A stretch of DNA of 64,000 bases from a phage: the sequence record PZ172995.1. One strand, written 5' to 3'. Positions 9,801 to 17,071 of this stretch are shown here, piece by piece. The notes beneath the pieces were generated by a model. It was not told where the DNA came from. It worked only from the letters and a program-made list of their open reading frames with translations, and did not search any database. Position numbers and translations under genes: made by a program. The first letter of the stretch is position 1. Each line of letters starts with the position of its first letter.

Positions 9801-11216
9801 ATGAGCGAATTATTTAAACATGCGCACCTTCATGCAGGTCGAACTGAAAATGGTGCTGTAAACCATACTTCATCAATGTCTGCTCTGGTGGACTTTTACA
9901 AAGCCGCTGGCTCAAGCCGTAGCAATGTAGAAATCTTACCAGACCTGTTCTACAAAGCTTTGCGTGAGGATGTTGATGTTGCAGTTCGTATTTTACTGCA
10001 TATGCGAGATGTACGAGAAGGTATGGGTGAGCGTAAAGCTTTCCGAACTGTTTTACTTCAAGCGATTGAAGATAAGGTTTTAGAACCTACACAGGTTCTT
10101 CGCATTATGGATAAGATTGCAGAACTTGGTCGTTTTGATGACTTCAAAATCTTCGTAGGCACTCGTTTTGAGACAGATGCCTTCAAACATTTAGAAGCAG
10201 CATTACTAGACCCTGCAACAGCAGGTTTAGCAGCTAAGTGGTTACCACGAGTAAAACCACGCCACAAACAGTTTGTAAAACGTTTCTGTAAGTTTGCAAA
10301 CTTAAGCGAGAAGGAGTATCGCACACTGTTATCTGCACTGTCTGATACGGTTGAGCAAAAAATCTCTGCTAATGAGTTTGGTAAGATTGACTACAGCAAG
10401 GTTCCTTCACTCGCTGCTGCACGTTACCAAAAACTCTTTAACCGTAAAGATGGGGAACGTTACAAAGCTTACGTTGAGTCACTCTCAAAGGGTGAGGCTA
10501 AGATTAACGCTGGTGCTGTTTACCCATACGATGTGATTAAATCTATCAAGTATGGTAATGCAGATGTGGCTAATGAGCAGTGGAAAGCACTACCAAACTG
10601 GATGGCAGAAGGTGAGAACATCTTGTGTATGACTGATGTTTCAAGTTCAATGTCTTGGGTGAGTCTTGGTTCAATCACTGCCCTTGATGTTGGTGTATCC
10701 CTTGCCTTGTATGTAGCAGAACGCAACACAGGTTGCTTTAAAGATGAGTTAATGGTCTATTCAACAAACCCTCATTTCATTGAACTGAGTGGTGATTTAC
10801 GAAACCGTCATCGTCAGGTAATGCGTCATGTTGAATATGGTTCAACTAACTTACAAGCAGCTTTTGACCGCATTCTTGAAATAGGTAAGAGAAACAACTT
10901 GACTCAGAAAGATATGCCAAGTAAGCTTATTATCTTCTCTGATATGGAGTTTAATCAGGTTGATGGTGCAAATGGTCGTACAAACTTTGAAGCAATTCAG
11001 AGTAAGTACAAAAAAGCTGGATACGAAATGCCACAACTAGTATTCTGGTACTTAGCAAACCGTAATGGTACTTGCGAAGTATCTGTTAAGGATAATGGTG
11101 TAGCAATGGTATCAGGGTTCTCTCCAGCCACTTTAAAAGCTCTGCTTGGTGGTGAGAAGTTTGACCCAATCAGCGTAATGCTCAAAGCAGTAATGATTGA
11201 CCGTTACATCTGGTAA
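9801..11216 (+). CDS. DUF2828-like protein with C-terminal vWA/MIDAS-like motif (possible TROVE/Ro60-like fold)
   Basis: N-terminal RTENGAVNHTSSMSAL motif and DVSSSMS (DxSxS) motif in the 471-aa translation; strong RBS; family assignment from recalled signatures, not a search. Confidence 0.6.
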   Translation: MSELFKHAHLHAGRTENGAVNHTSSMSALVDFYKAAGSSRSNVEILPDLFYKALREDVDVAVRILLHMRDVREGMGERKAFRTVLLQAIEDKVLEPTQVLRIMDKIAELGRFDDFKIFVGTRFETDAFKHLEAALLDPATAGLAAKWLPRVKPRHKQFVKRFCKFANLSEKEYRTLLSALSDTVEQKISANEFGKIDYSKVPSLAAARYQKLFNRKDGERYKAYVESLSKGEAKINAGAVYPYDVIKSIKYGNADVANEQWKALPNWMAEGENILCMTDVSSSMSWVSLGSITALDVGVSLALYVAERNTGCFKDELMVYSTNPHFIELSGDLRNRHRQVMRHVEYGSTNLQAAFDRILEIGKRNNLTQKDMPSKLIIFSDMEFNQVDGANGRTNFEAIQSKYKKAGYEMPQLVFWYLANRNGTCEVSVKDNGVAMVSGFSPATLKALLGGEKFDPISVMLKAVMIDRYIW

Positions 11217-11228
11217 AAAGTTTTAAAA

Positions 11229-11263
11229 AGGGTATTGACAATGTGTTTGATACCCTTTAATAT
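11229..11263 (+). promoter_or_regulatory. sigma70-like promoter (TTGACA, 17 nt, TAATAT) with flanking palindrome, upstream of tRNA array
   Basis: TTGACA 11235-11240, TAATAT 11258-11263; AAGGGTAT / ATACCCTT inverted repeat around the -35. Confidence 0.6.
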
Positions 11264-11324
11264 GTTCTACATAGAAACGAAATGAGAGCTTTTCTAAGAT
11301 ACTGAAAAATATTTTAAAAAGTTC

Positions 11325-11353
11325 TTGACAACCACTAAAAAATAATGTTAAAG
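11325..11353 (+). promoter_or_regulatory. second sigma70-like promoter (TTGACA, 18 nt, TAAAGT) upstream of tRNA array
   Basis: Same -35, spacer and -10 pattern as the promoter at 9732. Confidence 0.5.
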
Positions 11354-11380
11354 TGGTTACATAGAGTTTGAAAAGTTTAT

Positions 11381-11457
11381 CTCTGTTTAGCTCAGCTTGG
11401 TAGAGCGTTCCGTTTGGGGCGGTAAGGCCGGAGGTTCAAGTCCTCCAACAGAGACCA
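11381..11457 (+). tRNA. tRNA-Pro (TGG)
   Basis: Hand-folded cloverleaf: acceptor CTCTGTT/AACAGAG, anticodon loop TTTGGGG, T-arm GGAGG-TTCAAGT-CCTCC, CCA encoded. Confidence 0.75.
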
Positions 11458-11464
11458 AATTAAT

Positions 11465-11542
11465 GTTCCAGTAGACAAAACGGTAAAGTCACCACTCTTT
11501 CAAAGTGGATATTTGAGGGTTCAAATCCCTTCTGGAACGCCA
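11465..11542 (+). tRNA. tRNA-Glu (TTC)
   Basis: Acceptor GTTCCAG/CTGGAAC, anticodon stem CCACT/AGTGG with loop CTTTCAA, T-loop TTCAAAT, CCA encoded. Confidence 0.75.
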
Positions 11543-11547
11543 GTTTT

Positions 11548-11623
11548 GACAGAAGACCAATTACAGCAAACTTAATCTACTCATCTGACACGAAATCGGA
11601 CAAAGAAGATATTTGGTCTGGTC
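11548..11623 (+). ncRNA. conserved hairpin element, copy 1 (basal stem CAGAAGACC / GGTCTGG, loop with CAGCAA)
   Basis: GACAGAAGACCA pairs with TGGTCTGGTC around a loop of about 50 nt; same stem in three further copies. Confidence 0.5.
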
Positions 11624-11632
11624 ATTAAGAAT

Positions 11633-11709
11633 TGCGGGTATAGAGAAAGGGCGTCTCACATGTCTCATTAGCATGGTATCGGCAGGTTCGACTCCTGCAC
11701 CCGCCTCCA
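11633..11709 (+). tRNA. tRNA-Met (CAT), irregular acceptor stem
   Basis: D-stem GAGA/TCTC, anticodon stem CATGT/GCATG with loop CTCATTA, T-arm GCAGG-TTCGACT-CCTGC; acceptor pairing imperfect. Confidence 0.55.
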
Positions 11710-11714
11710 ATTTT

Positions 11715-11778
11715 GCAGAAGACCGTATGCAGCAACAAACTACTTTTTTTGCGGATAAAAGAAAAAACACGGTCTGGC
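11715..11778 (+). ncRNA. conserved hairpin element, copy 2
   Basis: GCAGAAGACCG ... CAGCAA ... CGGTCTGGC. Confidence 0.5.
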
Positions 11779-11788
11779 AATATATTAA

Positions 11789-11865
11789 GGTTAGGAAGCA
11801 CATAAGGTATGTGCGGTCGCCTGTTAAGCGAATGGCACAGGGTTCGAATCCCTGACTAACCGCCA
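11789..11865 (+). tRNA. tRNA-Asn (GTT)
   Basis: D-stem GCAC/GTGC, anticodon loop CTGTTAA, T-arm CAGGG-TTCGAAT-CCCTG, CCA encoded. Confidence 0.7.
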
Positions 11866-11874
11866 AATTTAAAT

Positions 11875-11962
11875 GTGTCGTTATCCCGTAGATGGTAGCG
11901 GTGGGGACTGTAAATCCCTTGTCATTGAGACTCGGTAGGTTCGACTCCTACACGGCACACCA
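11875..11962 (+). tRNA. tRNA-Tyr (GTA), long variable arm
   Basis: Acceptor GTGTCGT/ACGGCAC, anticodon loop CTGTAAA, long variable arm, T-arm GTAGG-TTCGACT-CCTAC, CCA encoded. Confidence 0.7.
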
Positions 11963-11968
11963 AATAAA

Positions 11969-12046
11969 GGTTATGTAGTTTAATCTGGTTAAAATACTCC
12001 CCTGTCACGGGAGATGATGAGGGTTCAAATCCCTTCGTAACCGCCA
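11969..12046 (+). tRNA. tRNA-Asp (GTC)
   Basis: Anticodon stem CTCCC/GGGAG with loop CTGTCAC, T-arm GAGGG-TTCAAAT-CCCTT, CCA encoded. Confidence 0.8.
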
Positions 12047-12129
12047 AATTATAATAAGTATTTCAAAATGATGTTTGAGAGGGCTATTTAGCCCCTCCCT
12101 TAAAGAGTTCTTACGAGTATTCTTTAAAG

Positions 12130-12212
12130 GAGCAGAAGACCAAATTCAGCAAGTACGTATGATATTTTCAAGCCAATTTAATTTTGAAAAAATTTAAAAC
12201 TTGGTCTGGCTC
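12130..12212 (+). ncRNA. conserved hairpin element, copy 3
   Basis: GAGCAGAAGACCAA pairs with TTGGTCTGGCTC; loop contains CAGCAA. Confidence 0.5.
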
Positions 12213-12221
12213 AACAAATTT

Positions 12222-12357
12222 ACAGAAGACCGTTTACAGCAAAACTTAAACAATCTATTTCTCCGGTAAAGAAAAGGCGAAGGTTCGATTCCTTCACTCG
12301 GCAGATGTCGAGTTGGTGTAATGGTAGCACTTAAGATGACAAACAACGGTCTGGTAA
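12222..12357 (+). ncRNA. conserved hairpin element, copy 4, enclosing a tRNA-like module (T-arm hairpin, acceptor-like hairpin, D-arm-like hairpin); candidate Y-RNA-like RNA
   Basis: Basal stem ACAGAAGACCGTT / AACGGTCTGGTA; inside: GAAGG-TTCGATT-CCTTC (12279-12295), ACTCGGC-AGAT-GTCGAGT (12296-12313), GTGT-AATGGTA-GCAC (12316-12330). Confidence 0.45.
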
Positions 12358-12503
12358 TTATCTTTGTAGGTGAGCTATTAAGCTTACTTGTGAGTATGCG
12401 ACCACAAAGGGTGAAAGGGCAAATTCTAGATTTAAACCCAACAAGGCACATCGCTACAGACCTTAAGCAAGTCTGGGTAGCTTATCTACAAAGATAATTT
12501 AAT

Positions 12504-12579
12504 GGAAGTGTAGCAGAATGGTGATGCGGCAGACTTTTAATCTGACAGGCGATGGGTTCGAATCCCTCCACTTCTACCA
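12504..12579 (+). tRNA. tRNA-Lys (TTT)
   Basis: Acceptor GGAAGTG/CACTTCT, anticodon loop CTTTTAA, T-loop TTCGAAT, CCA encoded; paralogous to the Lys(CTT) tRNA at 13820. Confidence 0.7.
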
Positions 12580-12583
12580 ATAT

Positions 12584-12660
12584 GGTTCAGTCGCAGATAA
12601 GGTAATGCAGGGGTCTCATAAGCCCTATGAATGTGGGTTCGATTCCCATCTGAACCTCCA
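12584..12660 (+). tRNA. tRNA with CAT anticodon (Met or lysidine-Ile)
   Basis: Acceptor GGTTCAG/CTGAACC, anticodon loop CTCATAA, T-arm GTGGG-TTCGATT-CCCAT, CCA encoded. Confidence 0.7.
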
Positions 12661-12661
12661 A

Positions 12662-12737
12662 GCTGGTATAGTTAAGAAGGTTATAACACTCCCCTGATAA
12701 GGGAATATCGGTGGTTCGATTCCACCTACCAGTACCA
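12662..12737 (+). tRNA. tRNA-Ile (GAT)
   Basis: D-stem GTTA/TAAC, anticodon loop CTGATAA, T-arm GGTGG-TTCGATT-CCACC, CCA encoded. Confidence 0.75.
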
Positions 12738-12752
12738 ATTTCAATAAAGTTG

Positions 12753-12781
12753 TTGACATTGATATGTGACTATTTTATAGT
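12753..12781 (+). promoter_or_regulatory. sigma70-like promoter (TTGACA, 17 nt, TATAGT) inside the tRNA array
   Basis: TTGACA 12753-12758, TATAGT 12776-12781; downstream about 300 nt has no tRNA or ORF. Confidence 0.55.
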
Positions 12782-12832
12782 AACTGAAAATGATTCAGCA
12801 TATGTATAATTCAAACACCAATACATGAGCGT

Positions 12833-12904
12833 TAGACGTAACACAATGTGGGGAAATTTGTTGTACATATTCTGAATAGTTTTCGTTGCGTAGCGTCTAT
12901 TTTG
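12833..12904 (+). terminator. putative structured element ending in a T-run (possible sRNA 3' end)
   Basis: TAGACG ... CGTCTA stem enclosing about 55 nt, followed by TTTTGC. Confidence 0.3.
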
Positions 12905-13074
12905 CAAATTTAAAATAAATGCAAACGACAATGTTTTTCTGGCAGTAGCTTGATAGGCTAAACACCAGTGAGGTCTTCCAATCCCTCATCAAAGAATTTG
13001 GCGTACTAGCCCACGGTATGATTAATAAGGTGGGCATCTTTAAGGGCTTTCTAAGAGAGTCTTTAAAGATTAAT

Positions 13075-13151
13075 GCACCCTTAGTTCAATTGGATAGAGC
13101 AACGGTCTTCTAAATCGTTAGTTACAGGTTCGAATCCTGTAGGGTGTGCCA
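13075..13151 (+). tRNA. tRNA-Arg (TCT)
   Basis: Acceptor GCACCCT/AGGGTGT, anticodon loop CTTCTAA, T-arm ACAGG-TTCGAAT-CCTGT, CCA encoded. Confidence 0.75.
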
Positions 13152-13293
13152 AATAGTTAGCAGATTGCTTAGACGACCTTATCGGGTCTCCGCGTAAGGA
13201 GGTGGTCTGTATCTCATGTTTTCCAGAACATGTAAATAATCTGAGAAGGGGCTTTACAGTGTTGCGAAAATACGGTAAGCTTCGAATTATAGT

Positions 13294-13376
13294 GTGGGAC
13301 GATGTTAAGACTCTAAGGCATGAGCAACGGCCTCCAAAACCGTTTCAAAGGGGTTCAACTCCTCCGTCCCATGCCA
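13294..13376 (+). tRNA. tRNA-Trp (CCA)-like, atypical length and D-region
   Basis: Acceptor GTGGGAC/GTCCCAT, anticodon loop CTCCAAA, T-loop TTCAACT, CCA encoded; about 7 nt longer than canonical. Confidence 0.45.
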
Positions 13377-13389
13377 AAGTCTTATTAGG

Positions 13390-13477
13390 GGTAGGTAGCG
13401 GCTAATGGCAGCCAAACAGTCTTGAAAACTGTTGCAACTGTAGAGATACGGTGAGGGTTCGACTCCTTTACTTACCA
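13390..13477 (+). tRNA. tRNA-Ser (TGA), long variable arm
   Basis: Acceptor GGTAGGT/ACTTACC, anticodon stem ACAGT/ACTGT with loop CTTGAAA, variable arm about 20 nt, T-loop TTCGACT. Confidence 0.7.
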
Positions 13478-13634
13478 CCTAATAAGATTTTACACCGTCC
13501 ATGCTTGCTCGCATTTTCGGTTTATCCCTCGTGTATTGTCGTACACACTGATAAAGCACCTAGTAGGTGTCACGGAGAAGAGATAATATCAAGCTCTCCA
13601 AAGGTTCTAGTCACCGGATTAAACAAGACTATGC

Positions 13635-13656
13635 AAAGACCAATTTAGGTCTTTTT
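13635..13656 (+). terminator. putative Rho-independent terminator
   Basis: AAAGACC-AATTTA-GGTCTTT followed by TTT. Confidence 0.45.
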
Positions 13657-13735
13657 AGAGGGCTTCTAAGGTTATTACAGCTTGTTGTGGAACCTTGTTG
13701 CTTAGGTTCTTAGAAGTTCTCTAAAAAGATTTAAT

Positions 13736-13812
13736 GCACCTATAGCCCAACTGGTAGAGGCAGCAGACTTAGAATCTGCTCAGTGTGAGTTCGAATCTCT
13801 CTAGGTGTACCA
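13736..13812 (+). tRNA. tRNA with TAG anticodon (Leu by anticodon), short variable arm
   Basis: Acceptor GCACCTA/TAGGTGT, anticodon stem GCAGA/TCTGC with loop CTTAGAA, T-loop TTCGAAT, A73, CCA encoded. Confidence 0.65.
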
Positions 13813-13819
13813 AATTAAT

Positions 13820-13895
13820 GCAGGTGTAGCAAAATGGTTATGCGGCTGACTCTTAATCAGTAAGACGATGGGTTCAATTCCCTCCACCTGTACCA
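13820..13895 (+). tRNA. tRNA-Lys (CTT)
   Basis: Acceptor GCAGGTG/CACCTGT, anticodon loop CTCTTAA, T-loop TTCAATT, CCA encoded. Confidence 0.7.
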
Positions 13896-13901
13896 AACAT
13901 T

Positions 13902-13977
13902 GGGGTCATAGTTTATATGGTTAAAATTCGAGTTTTGCAAACTTGGGAACTGAGTTCAATTCTCAGTGACTCCACCA
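13902..13977 (+). tRNA. tRNA-Ala (TGC)
   Basis: Acceptor GGGGTCA/TGACTCC, anticodon loop TTTGCAA, T-arm CTGAG-TTCAATT-CTCAG, CCA encoded. Confidence 0.7.
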
Positions 13978-13983
13978 ATTAGT

Positions 13984-14058
13984 GCATCCATAGTTTAAAC
14001 GGGAAAATTACAGTCTTCCAAACTGAGGTTGAGGGTTCGATTCCCTCTGGATGCTCCA
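13984..14058 (+). tRNA. tRNA-Gly (TCC)
   Basis: Acceptor GCATCCA/TGGATGC, anticodon loop CTTCCAA, T-loop TTCGATT, CCA encoded. Confidence 0.75.
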
Positions 14059-14065
14059 AATTAAT

Positions 14066-14141
14066 GCTCCTATCGTATAATTGGCTATTACGGTTGCCTT
14101 GTAAGTAACTTATCAGGGTTCGAATCCTTGTGGGAGCACCA
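14066..14141 (+). tRNA. tRNA-Thr (TGT)
   Basis: Acceptor GCTCCTA/TGGGAGC, anticodon loop CTTGTAA, T-arm CAGGG-TTCGAAT-CCTTG, CCA encoded. Confidence 0.7.
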
Positions 14142-14238
14142 ATTTAGAGGTCAAGTGAAAGACCGCTTTGAGTCAACTGAAGACCGTAACAAATCCCACG
14201 GAGTTGAGTTAGCGGCACAACTTCAGACCTCTTTCCAC

Positions 14239-14313
14239 ACTCGCTTAGTTTATATGGTAAAACATCACCCTTACAAGATGAAGAAAAAGGTTCAAGTCCT
14301 TTAGTGAGTACCA
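14239..14313 (+). tRNA. tRNA-Val (TAC)
   Basis: D-stem GTTT/AAAC, anticodon loop CTTACAA, T-arm AAAGG-TTCAAGT-CCTTT, CCA encoded. Confidence 0.7.
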
Positions 14314-14314
14314 T

Positions 14315-14392
14315 GTTCCAGTATCCCAATTGGCAGAGGATGCAAGCTCAAACCTTGCACTAGTGACGGTTCGAATCCGTCTTGGAACACCA
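14315..14392 (+). tRNA. tRNA with CAA anticodon (Leu by anticodon), short variable arm
   Basis: Acceptor GTTCCAG/TTGGAAC, anticodon stem GCAAG/CTTGC with loop CTCAAAC, T-arm GACGG-TTCGAAT-CCGTC, A73, CCA encoded. Confidence 0.65.
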
Positions 14393-14397
14393 ATTTT

Positions 14398-14473
14398 GCA
14401 GGATTAGTTCAAATGGATAGAGCAACAGTCTACGAAGCTGTTAATAGGGGTTCGAGTCCCTTATCCTGCGCCA
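14398..14473 (+). tRNA. tRNA-Arg (ACG)
   Basis: Acceptor GCAGGAT/ATCCTGC, anticodon loop CTACGAA, T-loop TTCGAGT, CCA encoded. Confidence 0.75.
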
Positions 14474-14491
14474 GATAAGTAAGAGTGATTT

Positions 14492-14734
14492 ATGCAAACA
14501 TTAATCGTCGTTGAACATGAAAATTCCAATAGCATTGAGTTTGTAAGGGTTCCCACTATAGATACCCACATTTTCTTGAAAGTAGGCTGGGAATGTGACC
14601 CAATAAGAGTAGAAAAATTTATTGGTCATTACTTTGGTGGAAGACAACTTAAAAGTGTTAATTTTGAGACAATGTTACCAGAAAACTCAGAAACAAATAA
14701 TAATGTTTACCTCCTTACAAGGATTAGACAATGA
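14492..14734 (+). CDS. hypothetical protein encoded inside the tRNA array
   Basis: ORF with RBS; ATGA overlap with the next gene. Confidence 0.5.
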   Translation: MQTLIVVEHENSNSIEFVRVPTIDTHIFLKVGWECDPIRVEKFIGHYFGGRQLKSVNFETMLPENSETNNNVYLLTRIRQ

Positions 14735-15288
14735 GATATTTGAAGTATGTTTCATGGATTTTCTTAGCTTTGCTAGAGCCATTTGCAGCAATCTTAGCAG
14801 TCATCTTAGCACCTTTTGTAGTTCTATTCTACAGTGAGAAGAGAGGACACTTACCTTTCGGCTTCAGATGGATGGAAACATATGATAACCCAATTGATGG
14901 TGATAAAGGTCATGTCGAACGATGGGCTAAGATTAGAAAGATTGGTAAGCTTGGTATCTATATGCAGAGAGTTGGTTGGCTCTGGAGAAACAAAGCTTAT
15001 AACTTCTCTTACCATGTGTTAGGAAGAGATGTAAAAGATGTTACTAAGTGGAAAGGTAATATCAATGTAAGTTCTAACCCTGAAGATAATCAGACAGGTT
15101 ATCTCCTAATGTGGAACAGTAATGCTTGGGGATTATTCGCTTTTATCCCATCAATTAAACTCTTTGGTAAGCAATTCTACTGGAGAATTTATGTTGGATG
15201 GAAACTTAAAAGTGTTGTTCCAAAAGAAAGAGCATTCTCAAGGGAAAGAGTTATGTTGGCATTCTTTATTCATCCACTGAGAAAGTAA
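14731..15288 (+). CDS. hypothetical Trp-rich membrane protein encoded inside the tRNA array
   Basis: N-terminal hydrophobic helix WIFLALLEPFAAILAVILAPFVVLF in the 185-aa translation. Confidence 0.6.
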   Translation: MRYLKYVSWIFLALLEPFAAILAVILAPFVVLFYSEKRGHLPFGFRWMETYDNPIDGDKGHVERWAKIRKIGKLGIYMQRVGWLWRNKAYNFSYHVLGRDVKDVTKWKGNINVSSNPEDNQTGYLLMWNSNAWGLFAFIPSIKLFGKQFYWRIYVGWKLKSVVPKERAFSRERVMLAFFIHPLRK

Positions 15289-15296
15289 AGATTTAA

Positions 15297-15372
15297 AGGG
15301 GATTAGTTTACAAGGTTAAAACCTCGGTCTTTGAAATCGAAGAAGTTGGTTCAATTCCAACATCCCCCGCCA
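15297..15372 (+). tRNA. tRNA-Gln (TTG)
   Basis: Anticodon stem TCGGT/ATCGA with loop CTTTGAA, T-arm GTTGG-TTCAATT-CCAAC, CCA encoded. Confidence 0.7.
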
Positions 15373-15374
15373 AT

Positions 15375-15453
15375 GCTCCATTACTCCAATTGGCAGAGAG
15401 GCCAGACTTAAAATCTGTGTTATGTATCGGTTCGAATCCGATATGGAGTACCA
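15375..15453 (+). tRNA. tRNA with TAA anticodon (Leu by anticodon), short variable arm
   Basis: Acceptor GCTCCAT/ATGGAGT, anticodon loop CTTAAAA, T-arm ATCGG-TTCGAAT-CCGAT, A73, CCA encoded. Confidence 0.65.
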
Positions 15454-15458
15454 AATTT

Positions 15459-15534
15459 AGCGGTATAGCATAACTGGCAATGCAGCAGTCTCTGAAGCTG
15501 TCTTATTAAGGTTCAAATCCTTATGCCGCTGCCA
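15459..15534 (+). tRNA. tRNA-Gln (CTG)
   Basis: D-stem GCAT/ATGC, anticodon loop CTCTGAA, T-arm TAAGG-TTCAAAT-CCTTA, CCA encoded. Confidence 0.7.
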
Positions 15535-15565
15535 CTTCTAAGGATTCTTACGAGAGTCCTTAAAT

Positions 15566-15641
15566 GTGGCCTTATCATAAATGGTAATGACCCATGCTGT
15601 GAACATGGTCTATACGGGTTCAAATCCCGTAGGTCACCCCA
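15566..15641 (+). tRNA. tRNA-His (GTG)
   Basis: D-stem TCAT/ATGA, anticodon stem CCATG/CATGG with loop CTGTGAA, T-arm ACGGG-TTCAAAT-CCCGT, CCA encoded. Confidence 0.75.
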
Positions 15642-15646
15642 ATTTA

Positions 15647-15723
15647 TAGTCCAAGTAGCTTATATGGTTAAAGCGCGTGTCTGAAAAACATGAGAAGAGG
15701 GTTCAAATCCCACTGGACTACCA
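15647..15723 (+). tRNA. tRNA-Phe (GAA)
   Basis: Acceptor TAGTCCA/TGGACTA, anticodon stem CGTGT/ACATG with loop CTGAAAA, T-loop TTCAAAT; linker lengths slightly irregular. Confidence 0.65.
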
Positions 15724-15739
15724 ATTTCAAAGGTGCTTA

Positions 15740-16474
15740 ATGAAAGAGATGACAGGACAAGGTAAGGAGATTTTTAATCTCTTAAAAACCGGTAGAGGGT
15801 TTTCTAATCCCCTTATTACTGGTGCAGCAGTTCTCGGTGGAACCGTAGCTGCCTCTACATCACTTGTAAGCTCTATTAGCTCTGTAACAGACCCTACAAT
15901 AAAGGATAAACTTGTTGCCGCTGGACTTACAACAGTTCTGCTTAACAGCTTTACAACGAGTCTGACAAGCACTACATCCACCACTAAGACATTGACAGAT
16001 TACGGTCAAAAATCAATTGATGAGTTTTCATCACGTATGCAGGTAGCAAAAGGATATTCCAATGTTATGGGTGCAGCAGGAGAGCAAGTTGGTTGTACAC
16101 CATTTAGTGGTATTATGGGTGTTGCTACAGAATATGGTCAAAAAGCTATTGACACGATTAACAACACGTTAGACAGTGTTAACGGCGTGTTAAGTGACTT
16201 ACAGGATGCTATTGATAAAGGTCTTGATACTGTTTCTGATTTAGCTAACCAAGCTGTTAGCAAGATTAATGAAGGTATCTCGAAGATTACAGCTTATGCA
16301 GATGAAGTTGTGCAGATGATTGAAGAAGAAGCTGCCCTTATTGCAGAGTACCTTAAAACGAATATCAATGGGTTCTTAGCAGGTATTTTACCAGACTGGT
16401 TTGATGATGCTTGTAAAACTGGTGTGATTGACACTATTGCAACACCAGAAATGAAGAACGCATTACAGAAATAA
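15740..16474 (+). CDS. hypothetical Ser/Thr-rich protein encoded inside the tRNA array
   Basis: Track start 15677 lies inside tRNA-Phe; ATG at 15740 has AAAGGTG RBS; low-complexity S/T region then a helical C-terminal half. Confidence 0.6.
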   Translation: MKEMTGQGKEIFNLLKTGRGFSNPLITGAAVLGGTVAASTSLVSSISSVTDPTIKDKLVAAGLTTVLLNSFTTSLTSTTSTTKTLTDYGQKSIDEFSSRMQVAKGYSNVMGAAGEQVGCTPFSGIMGVATEYGQKAIDTINNTLDSVNGVLSDLQDAIDKGLDTVSDLANQAVSKINEGISKITAYADEVVQMIEEEAALIAEYLKTNINGFLAGILPDWFDDACKTGVIDTIATPEMKNALQK

Positions 16475-16475
16475 T

Positions 16476-16568
16476 GGAAGATTAACCCTAAAAGGTAAGG
16501 GAGCAGTTTGCTAAACTGCCAGTAGCTGAGAAATCGGTGTACCAGTTCAAGTCTGGTATCTTCCCCCA
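16476..16568 (+). tRNA. tRNA-Ser (GCT), long variable arm
   Basis: Acceptor GGAAGAT/ATCTTCC, anticodon stem GCAGT/ACTGC with loop TTGCTAA, variable arm about 21 nt, T-arm ACCAG-TTCAAGT-CTGGT, CCA encoded. Confidence 0.75.
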
Positions 16569-16572
16569 ATTT

Positions 16573-16648
16573 GAATCCGTGACAGAAATGGCTATGTGCC
16601 TGTCTGCAAAACAGGTTTATAAGGGTTCGAGTCCCTTCGGATTCTCCA
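16573..16648 (+). tRNA. tRNA-Cys (GCA)
   Basis: Acceptor GAATCCG/CGGATTC, anticodon stem CCTGT/ACAGG with loop CTGCAAA, T-arm AAGGG-TTCGAGT-CCCTT, CCA encoded. Confidence 0.8.
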
Positions 16649-16746: not shown

Positions 16747-16810
16747 CAGAGTTATACTTTATAAGAAGGCTTATACAGTATGTCTCTGACGTACATTGTG
16801 GTTTCTCCTT

Positions 16811-16834
16811 GACGGTCTCTGTACCGTCTTTTTT
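16811..16834 (+). terminator. Rho-independent terminator after the tRNA array
   Basis: GACGGT-CTCTGT-ACCGTC followed by TTTTTT. Confidence 0.75.
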
Positions 16835-16870
16835 AAGGGGAAACATGGTTAATTATTTGGAGAAAACATA

Positions 16871-17071
16871 ATGAGTGAGACCGTTTATAAAGAACTTTAT
16901 GAAGCTAACAAAAAGCTAGAATTTATGCAGAACACTATCATGGCAATTGCAGATAGATTGTCTGTAGCAACAGGTATTGATATCAAAGAAGCCTCTATGG
17001 ATACACTTCTTGATGCTGTTGATGCAAAGTTCGAAGTTAAGAAAGAAGAGACTGCTACAGACTCTGAATAA
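16871..17071 (+). CDS. hypothetical small acidic protein immediately upstream of the large terminase
   Basis: ORF with GGAGAAA RBS; position would fit a small terminase partner but sequence is uninformative. Confidence 0.5.
   Translation: MSETVYKELYEANKKLEFMQNTIMAIADRLSVATGIDIKEASMDTLLDAVDAKFEVKKEETATDSE

What the first reader, a model, noticed from the sequence alone, without database searches (positions are those of the whole stretch)
12279..12330. tRNA-like module with permuted topology (T-arm and 3' acceptor strand precede 5' acceptor strand and D-arm)
A canonical T-arm (GAAGG-TTCGATT-CCTTC) is followed by ACTCGGC, a 4-nt loop AGAT, then GTCGAGT, which pairs with ACTCGGC over 7 bp including one G-U, and then a D-arm-like hairpin GTGT-AATGGTA-GCAC. 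No anticodon arm is present. This could be a tRNA mimic, a decayed or circularly permuted tRNA gene, or the tRNA-like domain of a Y-like RNA.
Basis: seen in the sequence. Interest (0 to 1): 0.65.

Follow-up and report, generated by a model that had tools for sequence, protein, structure and literature searches.

The report
Phage Y-RNA-like tRNA mimic beside Ro60-like gene
The permuted tRNA-like module is real and conserved, and it is most likely the tRNA-mimic domain of an unannotated Y-type small RNA that partners with a Ro60-like protein encoded 1 kb upstream in Felix O1-type phages, a protein already shown experimentally to counter a bacterial anti-phage defence.

The parts
9801..11216 (+). 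Ro60-like protein gene (471 aa; Pfam DUF2828 + DUF7788 + weak VWA_2; PHROG 850 'RNA-binding protein'); the presumed protein partner
11548..11623 (+). Module M1: bulged closing stem (GAC-AGA-AGACCAA / TTGGTCT-G-GTC) + CAGCAA, with no tRNA-like insert
11714..11779 (+). Module M2: TGC-AGA-AGACCGT / ACGGTCT-G-GCA + CAGCAA, with no tRNA-like insert
12130..12212 (+). Module M3: GAGC-AGA-AGACCAA / TTGGTCT-G-GCTC + CAGCAA, with no tRNA-like insert
   Evidence: nearly invariant across genera
12220..12357 (+). Module M4: the whole candidate Y-like RNA that contains the finding (about 138 nt)
   Evidence: The MFE fold gives a closed multi-arm junction. The unit is conserved across Felixounavirus, Mooglevirus and Suspvirus.
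12220..12234 (+). 5' strand of the closing stem: outer helix TTAC (12220-12223), internal loop AGA (12224-12226), inner helix AGACCGTT (12227-12234)
   Evidence: Pairs with 12345-12357. The outer helix and the distal inner pairs differ compensatorily among M1-M4. The stem sequence differs in every distant phage yet always pairs.
12237..12242 (+). Conserved single-stranded CAGCAA motif (extended roughly as YUU-CAGCAA-ACUUAAA); candidate protein-recognition element
   Evidence: Present in M1-M4 and 5' of all 12 distant tRNA-like cores. Modules carrying it are enriched beside the Ro60-like gene.
12258..12274 (+). V hairpin, anticodon-arm-like: TTTCT-CCGGTAA-AGAAA, followed by AGGC (12275-12278)
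   Evidence: The stem is kept but the loop varies: CTGGTAA, AGGGTAT, CTATAAA and a 6-nt CGGTAA.
12279..12295 (+). T-arm: GAAGG-TTCGATT-CCTTC
   Evidence: 3 of 5 pairs covary; GGTTCRA is invariant
12296..12313 (+). Loop-closed acceptor-like hairpin (AS): ACTCGGC-AGAT-GTCGAGT
   Evidence: All 7 pairs show double-sided changes. It is ACACGT-TACG-GCGTGT in the Sf15 group and ACCCTTC-GCCAAACA-GAAGGGT in Mordin/Michonne.
12314..12330 (+). U8/G9-equivalent dinucleotide TG, then D-arm GTGT-AATGGTA-GCAC
   Evidence: T at the U8 position and GG in the D-loop occur in all 16 aligned members.
12345..12357 (+). 3' strand of the closing stem: AACGGTCT (12345-12352), G (12353), GTAA (12354-12357)

Best explanation
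The finding is the tRNA-like domain of a roughly 138-nt non-coding RNA (M4, 12220-12357) built on the plan of bacterial/phage YrlA-type Y RNAs. A bulged stem made from the two ends encloses a V hairpin, a T-arm, an acceptor stem closed by a loop, and a D-arm. The RNA can therefore form a tRNA elbow but has no free acceptor end and no functional anticodon loop. Inferred mechanism: M4 and its three insert-less paralogues M1-M3 are transcribed with the first tRNA operon and released when RNase P and 3' processing excise the flanking tRNAs. The Ro60-like ring protein encoded just upstream (9801-11216; Bas63 gp130 ortholog) binds the conserved bulged stem / CAGCAA region. The tRNA-like domain then acts as the effector end that tethers or decoys a tRNA-recognising host factor (exoribonuclease, RNase P, CCA-adding or modification enzymes, or a tRNA-directed defence nuclease). 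Shown here: the structure, its conservation and covariation, the Ro60-like fold of the neighbouring protein, and the genomic coupling of stem+CAGCAA modules to that gene family. Inferred: that the RNA accumulates, that the protein binds it, and what the complex does.
Against: No expression, end-mapping or binding data exist; everything is computational. The published YrlA Ro-binding motif GNCGAAN0-1G is absent from the expected place. The protein has no Pfam TROVE hit even at E = 10, and profile comparison with Bxz1 Ro60 aligns only the MIDAS segment at 49% probability, so its Ro60 nature rests on a predicted fold. gp130 alone, from a plasmid or inside T7, rescues plaquing on Ppl, so that activity does not need these RNAs. 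Only 9 of 75 distant loci show a strong tRNA-like core within +/-5 kb. Distant members were selected by a pairing descriptor, so their pairing statistics are partly circular. Isolates SP116 and ESCO56 lack an intact M4, so it is dispensable for propagation.
Confidence: 0.7

Rival explanations
1. It is a working two-piece (circularly permuted) tRNA. RNase P cuts at U12306|G12307 in the acceptor loop, the 3' side is trimmed to A12303, and CCA is added. The two pieces, held together by the closing stem, are then aminoacylated (Thr, anticodon GGU) and used in translation.
For: All four tRNA arms plus a 4-nt variable loop are present in permuted order. The window variant has a 7-bp acceptor. 4 of 16 family members encode N-CCA directly after a 7-bp acceptor 3' strand: Michonne G-CCA-AACA, L055b, L085a and L085c. 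M. smegmatis YrlA is cleaved by RNase P and receives CCA in vivo (PMC4201824). tRNAscan-SE called a 'tRNA-Thr-GGT' here in two records.
Against: The anticodon-like loop has C33 here, G33 in Michonne and CUAUAAA in ESh22, and is only 6 nt in L010-L012. The Sf15/EcSzw-2 clade has a 6-bp acceptor closed by a stable UACG tetraloop. An extra helix emerges between positions 26 and 27. U2-G71 does not fit Thr identity (established knowledge). The phage already has tRNA-Thr(UGU). RNase P cleavage plus CCA addition would be compatible with the Y-RNA reading, so only the decoding part is a true rival.
Confidence: 0.08
2. It is a structural/processing element of the tRNA operon, independent of the Ro60-like protein. 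For example, it could be a tRNA-shaped RNase P/RNase E entry or decoy site, or a stabiliser that sets processing order or protects neighbouring tRNAs.
For: It lies inside a tRNA transcription unit between promoter-like sites at 11325-11354 and 12753-12781. The whole 457-nt spacer is packed with conserved hairpins. tRNA-like inserts occur only in loci that also carry tRNA genes: 9/9 versus 15/66, Fisher p = 1e-5.
Against: The enclosing stem+CAGCAA signature tracks the Ro60-like gene rather than tRNAs; 32 loci have gene-proximal modules but no tRNA gene. In this window the modules occur only in the operon next to the gene and not among the 17 tRNAs farther downstream. The same core sits by a canonical Ro60 gene in Bxz1, away from its tRNA pair.
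Confidence: 0.13
3. It is debris with no function. Either it is the 3' part of one tRNA abutting the 5' part of a tandem copy after two deletions, or it is a chance tRNA-tRNA junction.
For: Tandem tRNAs with 1-9 nt spacers are the rule in this cluster. Chen et al. warn that dimeric tRNAs mimic YrlA. T-loop-mediated recombination does occur here: SP116 fuses the M4 T-arm to the tRNA-Lys 3' end.
Against: The permuted layout is the same in about 250 Ounavirinae genomes across three genera, with compensatory changes in every acceptor pair. No relative has an intact tRNA at this site. Real junctions score below 30 bits against 38-67 bits for family members. The un-permuted sequence is no closer to any of the 26 resident tRNAs than they are to each other. 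The flanking stem and motif are conserved in unrelated phages.
Confidence: 0.03
4. The region encodes a small protein, as annotated in some records: the minus-strand ORF 12194-12451 (bas63_0137/0138 equivalents) or the plus-strand ORF 12321-12497.
For: ORFs of 85 and 58 aa exist. 'Hypothetical protein' annotations cover the region in several records.
Against: The longest stop-free frame over the core changes strand, frame and length between genera: -95, -61, +82, -49 and +62 aa. Indels of 1, 2 and 4 nt distinguish relatives in the V loop and acceptor hairpin. The substitutions preserve base pairing, not codons.
Confidence: 0.02

Closest known systems
YrlA-type bacterial and phage Y RNAs (Chen et al. 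2014, RNA 20:1715; PMC4201824), e.g. S. Typhimurium and M. smegmatis YrlA and the mycobacteriophage YrlAs
   Same: The order of elements is the same: stem from the two ends, V stem-loop, T-arm, loop-closed acceptor-like stem, then D-arm. tRNA elbow nucleotides are conserved (GGTTCRA, U8-equivalent T, D-loop GG). It is encoded within 4 kb of a Ro60-type gene and on its strand. More than one Y-like RNA occurs per locus. Some members carry a 7-bp acceptor with a CCA-type end, as in M. smegmatis. My core model also finds the RNA beside Bxz1's TROVE gene.
   Different: The GNCGAAN0-1G Ro-binding motif is missing, and a conserved CAGCAA follows the 5' stem strand instead. The partner protein is a DUF2828-type Ro60-like protein that no TROVE sequence model detects, which is why the 2014 survey, limited to TROVE-annotated genomes, could not have seen it. 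The V hairpin plus 4-nt linker looks like a complete anticodon arm plus variable loop, so the closing stem emerges at tRNA positions 26/27. The unit is embedded in a tRNA operon. No Rfam family matches it.
Thermus phage phiLo Ro60 with Yrl1/Yrl2 (NAR 2025; PMC12135203)
   Same: A phage-encoded Ro60 ring with two or more adjacent Y-like RNAs of stem-bulge-stem design. It is proposed to hijack host PNPase as an anti-defence strategy. The phiLo Ro60 structure is among the top structural matches of the window protein.
   Different: The phiLo Yrls were identified by a CGAA motif in a bulge and are not described as tRNA-like. The protein is a recognisable TROVE protein.
Bas63 gp130 (PhageMaP preprint, PMC11482910)
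   Same: It is the same gene (97% identity, identical synteny). It was reported as structurally Ro60-like and as a counter to the Ppl defence. The authors suggested that some annotated tRNAs might be Y RNAs.
   Different: No RNA was identified there. The candidate found here is not one of the annotated tRNAs; it is an unannotated spacer element, annotated in Bas63 as a minus-strand CDS. gp130 works against Ppl without it.
Circularly permuted tRNA genes (Cyanidioschyzon merolae) and two-piece permuted tmRNA genes (alpha-proteobacteria, cyanobacteria)
   Same: The 3' acceptor strand and T-arm are encoded upstream of the 5' acceptor strand and D-arm, separated by a short intervening segment that could be excised.
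   Different: From established knowledge, C. merolae permuted tRNAs mature through a circular intermediate made by the eukaryal/archaeal splicing machinery and yield normal decoding tRNAs. Here the anticodon-like loop is not constrained and many members close the acceptor with tetraloops. tmRNA features are absent: no G3:U70, tag ORF or pseudoknots, and ARAGORN, which models permuted tmRNA, reports none.

Membership tests
YrlA-type Y RNA (Chen et al. 2014) | T-arm-like stem-loop with tRNA T-loop consensus | tested here: met
   GAAGG-TTCGATT-CCTTC at 12279-12295. GGTTCRA is invariant in 16 members, and 3 of 5 stem pairs covary.
YrlA-type Y RNA (Chen et al. 2014) | D-arm-like stem-loop with conserved GG | tested here: met
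   GTGT-AATGGTA-GCAC at 12316-12330. GG is present in all 16 members and the stem covaries.
YrlA-type Y RNA (Chen et al. 2014) | Stem-loop between T and D occupying the acceptor-stem position and closed by a loop (AS) | tested here: met
   7 bp + AGAT at 12296-12313. All 7 pairs change on both sides across the family, with three fully compensated versions within Ounavirinae.
YrlA-type Y RNA (Chen et al. 2014) | Less-conserved V stem-loop upstream of the T-arm | tested here: met
   TTTCT-CCGGTAA-AGAAA at 12258-12274. The stem is kept and the loop varies in relatives. A V hairpin is present in several distant members (L085a, L033, L055b) and not obvious in others.
YrlA-type Y RNA (Chen et al. 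2014) | 5' and 3' regions pair to form the stem that carries the Ro60 site | tested here: met
   12220-12234 pairs with 12345-12357. Stems of 6-9 bp with different sequence occur in every distant member. The true RNA ends are unknown.
YrlA-type Y RNA (Chen et al. 2014) | GNCGAAN0-1G motif near the 5' end (putative Ro60 contact) | tested here: not met
   The only GNCGAA in 11300-12520 is at 12276, inside the variable-loop/T-stem. CAGCAA occupies the equivalent place. Bxz1 has GCCGAG there.
YrlA-type Y RNA (Chen et al. 2014) | Encoded within 4 kb of, and on the same strand as, a Ro60 (TROVE) ortholog | tested here: inconclusive
YrlA-type Y RNA (Chen et al. 2014) | Core recognisable by the same structural model as an accepted YrlA locus | tested here: met
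   Model R1 gives one strong hit in 46 kb of Bxz1, 200 nt upstream of TROVE gp220 on the same strand. I did not have the published YrlA coordinates to confirm that this is the RNA reported in 2014.
YrlA-type Y RNA (Chen et al. 2014) | Bound by Ro60/Rsr in vivo; carries tRNA modifications (pseudouridine 55, dihydrouridine) | not testable with these tools
   This needs RIP/EMSA and modification mapping.
Canonical tRNA gene | Contiguous cloverleaf order, detectable by tRNA models | tested here: not met
   No ARAGORN call. Rfam tRNA gives only 22 bits, partial, against a gathering score of 29. The tRNAscan-SE 129-131 nt 'tRNA-Thr' calls in two records depend on an upstream 5' strand GCCAATT. That strand stays invariant while the 3' strand changes, leaving 2 of 7 pairs in Michonne.
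Canonical tRNA gene | 7-nt anticodon loop with U33 and purine 37 | tested here: not met
   The loop is CCGGTAA (C33) here, AGGGTAT in Michonne, and the 6-nt CGGTAA in L010-L012.
Circularly permuted / split tRNA gene | 3' half upstream of 5' half, together reconstituting a complete functional tRNA after processing | tested here: inconclusive
   The topology is met and all arms are present. Functional constraints on the anticodon loop and the free acceptor end are not kept across relatives. Processing is untestable here.
Two-piece (permuted) tmRNA | G3:U70 alanine identity pair, tag reading frame, pseudoknots | tested here: not met
   The acceptor pairs are G1-C72, U2-G71 and C3-G70. ARAGORN reports no tmRNA and Rfam gives no tmRNA hit.
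Ro60/TROVE protein family (for ORF 9801-11216) | HEAT-repeat ring plus C-terminal vWA domain with MIDAS motif | tested here: met
   AF2 pLDDT 85.7. Near-full-length structural matches to Ro60 from frog, Deinococcus and phage phiLo. DxSxS, T and D MIDAS residues are invariant in 36 homologues. This is a prediction, not a solved structure.
Ro60/TROVE protein family (for ORF 9801-11216) | Sequence membership: Pfam TROVE PF05731 / vWA_Ro60 PF25045 | tested here: not met
   Only DUF2828, DUF7788 and weak VWA_2 were found, even at E <= 10. PDB sequence searches find no Ro60.

The most novel reading that the evidence does not exclude
Stem+CAGCAA modules define a large, undescribed family of phage Y-like RNAs that serve DUF2828-type Ro60-like proteins found in hundreds of phage lineages. 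The tRNA-like insert is a swappable effector domain acquired only by phages that carry their own tRNAs. In variants with a 7-bp acceptor followed by N-CCA, RNase P cuts it into a two-piece, CCA-ended tRNA mimic. The RNP would act in counter-defence, for example by decoying or recruiting tRNA-directed nucleases or exoribonucleases, beyond the RNA-independent anti-Ppl activity already reported for gp130.
Probability: 0.2. Interest if true: 0.8.

Novelty: new variant of a known kind. Interest (0 to 1): 0.62.

Why it matters
Ro60-Y RNA particles are known in animals, about 5% of bacteria and a few phages, but their function is still poorly understood. This result locates a concrete candidate Y RNA, plus three sister modules, in Felix O1-type phages, which are tractable E. 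coli/Salmonella phages. Their Ro60-like gene already has a genetic phenotype: it counters the Ppl defence in Bas63 and is transferable to T7. The published guess that "some tRNAs may be Y RNAs" thereby becomes a testable object with exact coordinates and a defined motif. Two further implications follow. Ro60-like systems in phages appear much more widespread than TROVE annotation shows, since this gene has more than 589 confirmed IMG/VR loci. The RNA signature (bulged stem + CAGCAA) also differs from the classical GNCGAA/GGUCCGA site. On the practical side, several GenBank records annotate this RNA as a hypothetical protein or as an aberrant 129-nt tRNA-Thr, and those annotations should be corrected.

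Tried and rejected
(1) Rfam 15, at gathering and permissive thresholds, on the window and on 8 distant loci found no family other than tRNA, and a group I intron elsewhere. (2) Sequence searches of the protein against the PDB, as a single sequence and as a profile, found no Ro60 hit. hhalign against Bxz1 Ro60 aligned only the MIDAS segment. Only fold comparison worked. (3) A MAFFT alignment of full modules from distant phages misaligned the AS and D regions. I replaced it with a core-only seed plus Infernal realignment. (4) A relaxed module scan (6-bp stems, degenerate motif) was too noisy, so I tightened it to stems of at least 7 bp for statistics. (5) Missing tRNA-Trp hypothesis: the cluster lacks Trp, but the anticodon-like loop reads GGU and is unconstrained, so this was rejected. 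(6) The tRNAscan-SE model of a 129-nt intron-containing tRNA-Thr was rejected because its 5' strand does not covary. (7) Recent duplication of a resident tRNA was rejected; identity to all 26 tRNAs is within background. (8) Tracking of tRNA clusters rather than the gene was rejected. (9) Chen et al.'s supplementary YrlA alignments are not held, so I could not compare directly with published YrlA sequences. Bxz1 served as a surrogate. (10) A literature search for DUF2828 returned nothing relevant.

Full report
WHAT IS THERE. The window is a Felixounavirus (Felix O1-like myovirus). About 250 GenBank phages match this spacer at 80-99% identity. The finding lies in a 457-nt gap between tRNA-Asp (end 12046) and tRNA-Lys (start 12504), inside a 26-tRNA cluster on the + strand. 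These are the T-arm 12279-12295, ACTCGGC 12296-12302, loop AGAT, GTCGAGT 12307-12313 (7 pairs, one G-T), TG, and the D-arm 12316-12330. Neither ARAGORN nor Rfam calls a tRNA here; Rfam gives only a partial 22-bit hit.

Directly upstream is a 5-bp/7-nt hairpin, TTTCT-CCGGTAA-AGAAA (12258-12274), followed by AGGC. This is the geometry of an anticodon arm plus variable loop. The whole set of four arms is enclosed by a bulged stem. On the 5' side this is TTAC-AGA-AGACCGTT (12220-12234), and on the 3' side AACGGTCT-G-GTAA (12345-12357). A CAGCAA follows the 5' strand at 12237-12242. RNAfold recovers exactly this closed junction. The unit, which I call M4, spans 12220-12357. Three paralogues share the same bulged stem and CAGCAA but lack the tRNA-like insert. 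They are M1 (11548-11623), M2 (11714-11779) and M3 (12130-12212). Their outer helices differ compensatorily: GAC/GTC, TGC/GCA, GAGC/GCTC and TTAC/GTAA.

IS IT MORE THAN CHANCE OR DECAY? Yes. Positional homologues in Mooglevirus and Suspvirus keep the permuted order while rewriting the acceptor helix. It is ACACGT-UACG-GCGTGT in Sf15, KMM4, EcSzw-2 and ESh22, and ACCCTTC-GCCAAACA-GAAGGGT in Mordin and Michonne. The T- and D-arms and the flanks stay conserved. A covariance model of the T-AS-D core (R1) scores the site at 66.9 bits. The window's real tRNA-tRNA junctions, the known false positive for this architecture (PMC4201824), reach at most 23.6 bits. On 16 family members, 98.8% of cells pair, against 64% in shuffles and about 45% with slid partners. 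All seven acceptor pairs change on both sides. No reading frame over the core is conserved between genera. The 129-131-nt 'tRNA-Thr-GGT' that tRNAscan-SE produced in two records uses an upstream 5' strand that does not covary with the 3' strand.

DOES THE RNA GO WITH THE GENE? I fetched 80 IMG/VR loci encoding relatives of the protein, of which 75 are at 39-47% identity. A strict descriptor found 12 further permuted T-AS-D cores in 8 of them, and R1 later added one more locus, L016. All are on the gene's strand and none overlaps a tRNA call, against 0.2 hits expected per shuffled pass. Several close the acceptor with GNRA-type or other tetraloops (GTAA, GCAA, GAAA, TTAG). Four have a 7-bp acceptor followed by N-CCA. 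Every one of the 12 descriptor cores proved to sit inside a complementary 6-9-bp stem of different sequence whose 5' strand is followed by C[AC]GCA, usually UUUCAGCAA. Those flanks were not used for selection. Stem(>=7 bp)+CAGCAA modules occur at 0.635 per kb within 700 nt of the gene on its strand. This compares with 0.088 on the other strand, 0.078 farther away and 0.039 in shuffles. 53 of 75 loci have a gene-proximal module, often starting 20-30 nt after the stop codon. 32 of those loci have no tRNA gene at all. The module therefore follows the gene, not tRNA clusters. The tRNA-like insert occurs only where the phage also carries tRNAs: 9/9 versus 15/66, p = 1e-5.

COMPARISON WITH THE KNOWN FAMILY. 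Chen et al. 2014 define YrlA RNAs by five features. These are a 5' GNCGAAN0-1G motif; V, T, AS and D stem-loops in that order; tRNA-like tertiary nucleotides; and location within 4 kb of a TROVE gene on its strand. M. smegmatis YrlA (7-bp AS) is cut by RNase P and receives CCA. Their survey covered only genomes annotated with a TROVE domain, which excludes Felix O1-like phages. As a positive control I fetched mycobacteriophage Bxz1. Its gp220 is a canonical TROVE + vWA_Ro60 protein. R1, trained only on the DUF2828-phage modules, gives a single strong hit in 46 kb (33.3 bits, E 1.4e-7). The hit is 200 nt upstream of gp220 on its strand, with the layout closing stem, GCCGAG, V, T, AS, TA, D. The tRNA-like core is thus of the same kind. 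The differences are the motif (CAGCAA, not GNCGAA), the divergent protein partner, the 4-nt V-to-T linker that makes V look like a full anticodon arm, and the embedding in a tRNA operon. Rfam 15 has no model that detects any of these RNAs. Thermus phage phiLo offers a second phage precedent, a Ro60 plus two Y-like RNAs proposed to hijack PNPase (PMC12135203).

MECHANISM (INFERRED). Promoter-like sites at 11235-11263 and 11325-11354 precede tRNA-Pro, and the next strong one is at 12753-12781. M1-M4 are therefore probably co-transcribed with nine tRNAs and released by tRNA processing. The Ro60-like ring would bind the bulged stem/CAGCAA region common to M1-M4 and to the short modules of other phages. 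M4 additionally displays a tRNA elbow, with GGTTCRA, the U8-equivalent T and the D-loop GG conserved in all 16 members. That elbow could engage tRNA-recognising enzymes, as shown experimentally for YrlA. The window's 7-bp acceptor might allow RNase P cleavage at 12306/12307, whereas the 6-bp UACG version in the Sf15 clade probably does not. As a speculative aside, the 3' strand GGUCU-G-G resembles the GGUCCGA strand contacted by Xenopus Ro60 (quoted), read in a helix of opposite orientation relative to the RNA ends.

CAVEATS. There are no expression or binding data. The Ro60 assignment rests on a predicted structure. gp130 alone rescues T7 and Bas63 on Ppl, so the RNAs are not needed for that phenotype. 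SP116 has lost the 3' half of M4, the following hairpin and tRNA-Lys through T-loop-to-T-loop recombination, and ESCO56 lacks the region. M4 is therefore accessory. Pairing statistics for distant members are partly circular. The non-circular support is the Ounavirinae homologues, the unselected flanks, the strand and position bias, and the Bxz1 control.

VERDICT. The element is a new variant of a known kind: a YrlA-like tRNA mimic with a distinct motif and a divergent Ro60-like partner, widespread in phages. Confidence is about 0.7 for the Y-RNA partnership and above 0.9 that it is a selected, structured, non-coding tRNA mimic rather than tRNA debris.

Noticed in passing
window 12353-12500: A long hairpin lies directly 3' of M4, with a stem of about 24 bp (TAATTATCTTTGTAG... 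/ ...CTACAAAGATAATTTA). It is conserved in Mooglevirus and Suspvirus with compensatory changes (GTAG/CTAC to GCAG/CTGC; ATAAG/CTTAT to TGAC/GTTA). The apical part diverges except for GATTCTAGATT. It is probably another structured RNA of unknown role, and it overlaps a 58-aa ORF that is unlikely to be real.
   Followed up: partly
window 12072-12131: Two further conserved hairpins lie at the start of the Asp-Lys spacer: GAGAGGGCTATTTAGCCCCTCCC and CTTAAAGAGTTCTTACGAGTATTCTTTAAAGG. They are nearly invariant across three genera, with one A-T to G-C compensatory change in phage ASO1B.
   Followed up: no
window 11381-16648: The 26-tRNA cluster covers 19 amino acids (plus two tRNA-Met) but has no tRNA-Trp.
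   Followed up: no
L090 (Bas63 MZ501086) 16749-17023; also records under: GenBank records annotate small 'hypothetical protein' CDSs over the RNA modules (bas63_0137/0138 on the minus strand). Two records carry a 129-131-nt 'tRNA-Thr-GGT' from tRNAscan-SE. Both annotations are probably wrong.
   Followed up: yes
L091 (Salmonella phage SP116) 1000-1030: This is a natural deletion. The 5' half of the M4 T-arm is fused to the 3' end of tRNA-Lys(UUU) (...GAAGGTTCGATTCC|CTCCACTTCTACCA). That implies recombination between the two T-loops which removed the acceptor hairpin, the D-arm, the downstream hairpin and most of tRNA-Lys.
   Followed up: partly
L023 1532-1640: A distant module with closing stem AGAATGA/TCATTCT and CCGCAA has a T-arm (CCGG-TTCAACT-CCGG) followed almost directly by a D-arm (GTGT-AACGGTA-GCAC). 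It has no acceptor hairpin, so it is a reduced 'elbow-only' variant.
   Followed up: no
L085 6386-7110 and 9484-9606: One distant phage carries at least six stem+CAGCAA modules in tandem downstream of its Ro60-like gene. Three of them have tRNA-like inserts of different sequence. One V hairpin, TTTGC-CTACGAA-GCAAA + AGGT, looks like an intact tRNA-Arg(ACG) anticodon arm.
   Followed up: partly
L031 10696-10922: A group I intron (Rfam 71.5 bits) lies in a distant phage locus about 4 kb downstream of its Ro60-like gene.
   Followed up: no
records BPS17S6, Meda, radambza: Some Felixounavirus relatives have HNH homing-endonuclease genes inserted in the stretch that aligns to window 9801-12360 (Ro60-like gene to M4).
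   Followed up: no
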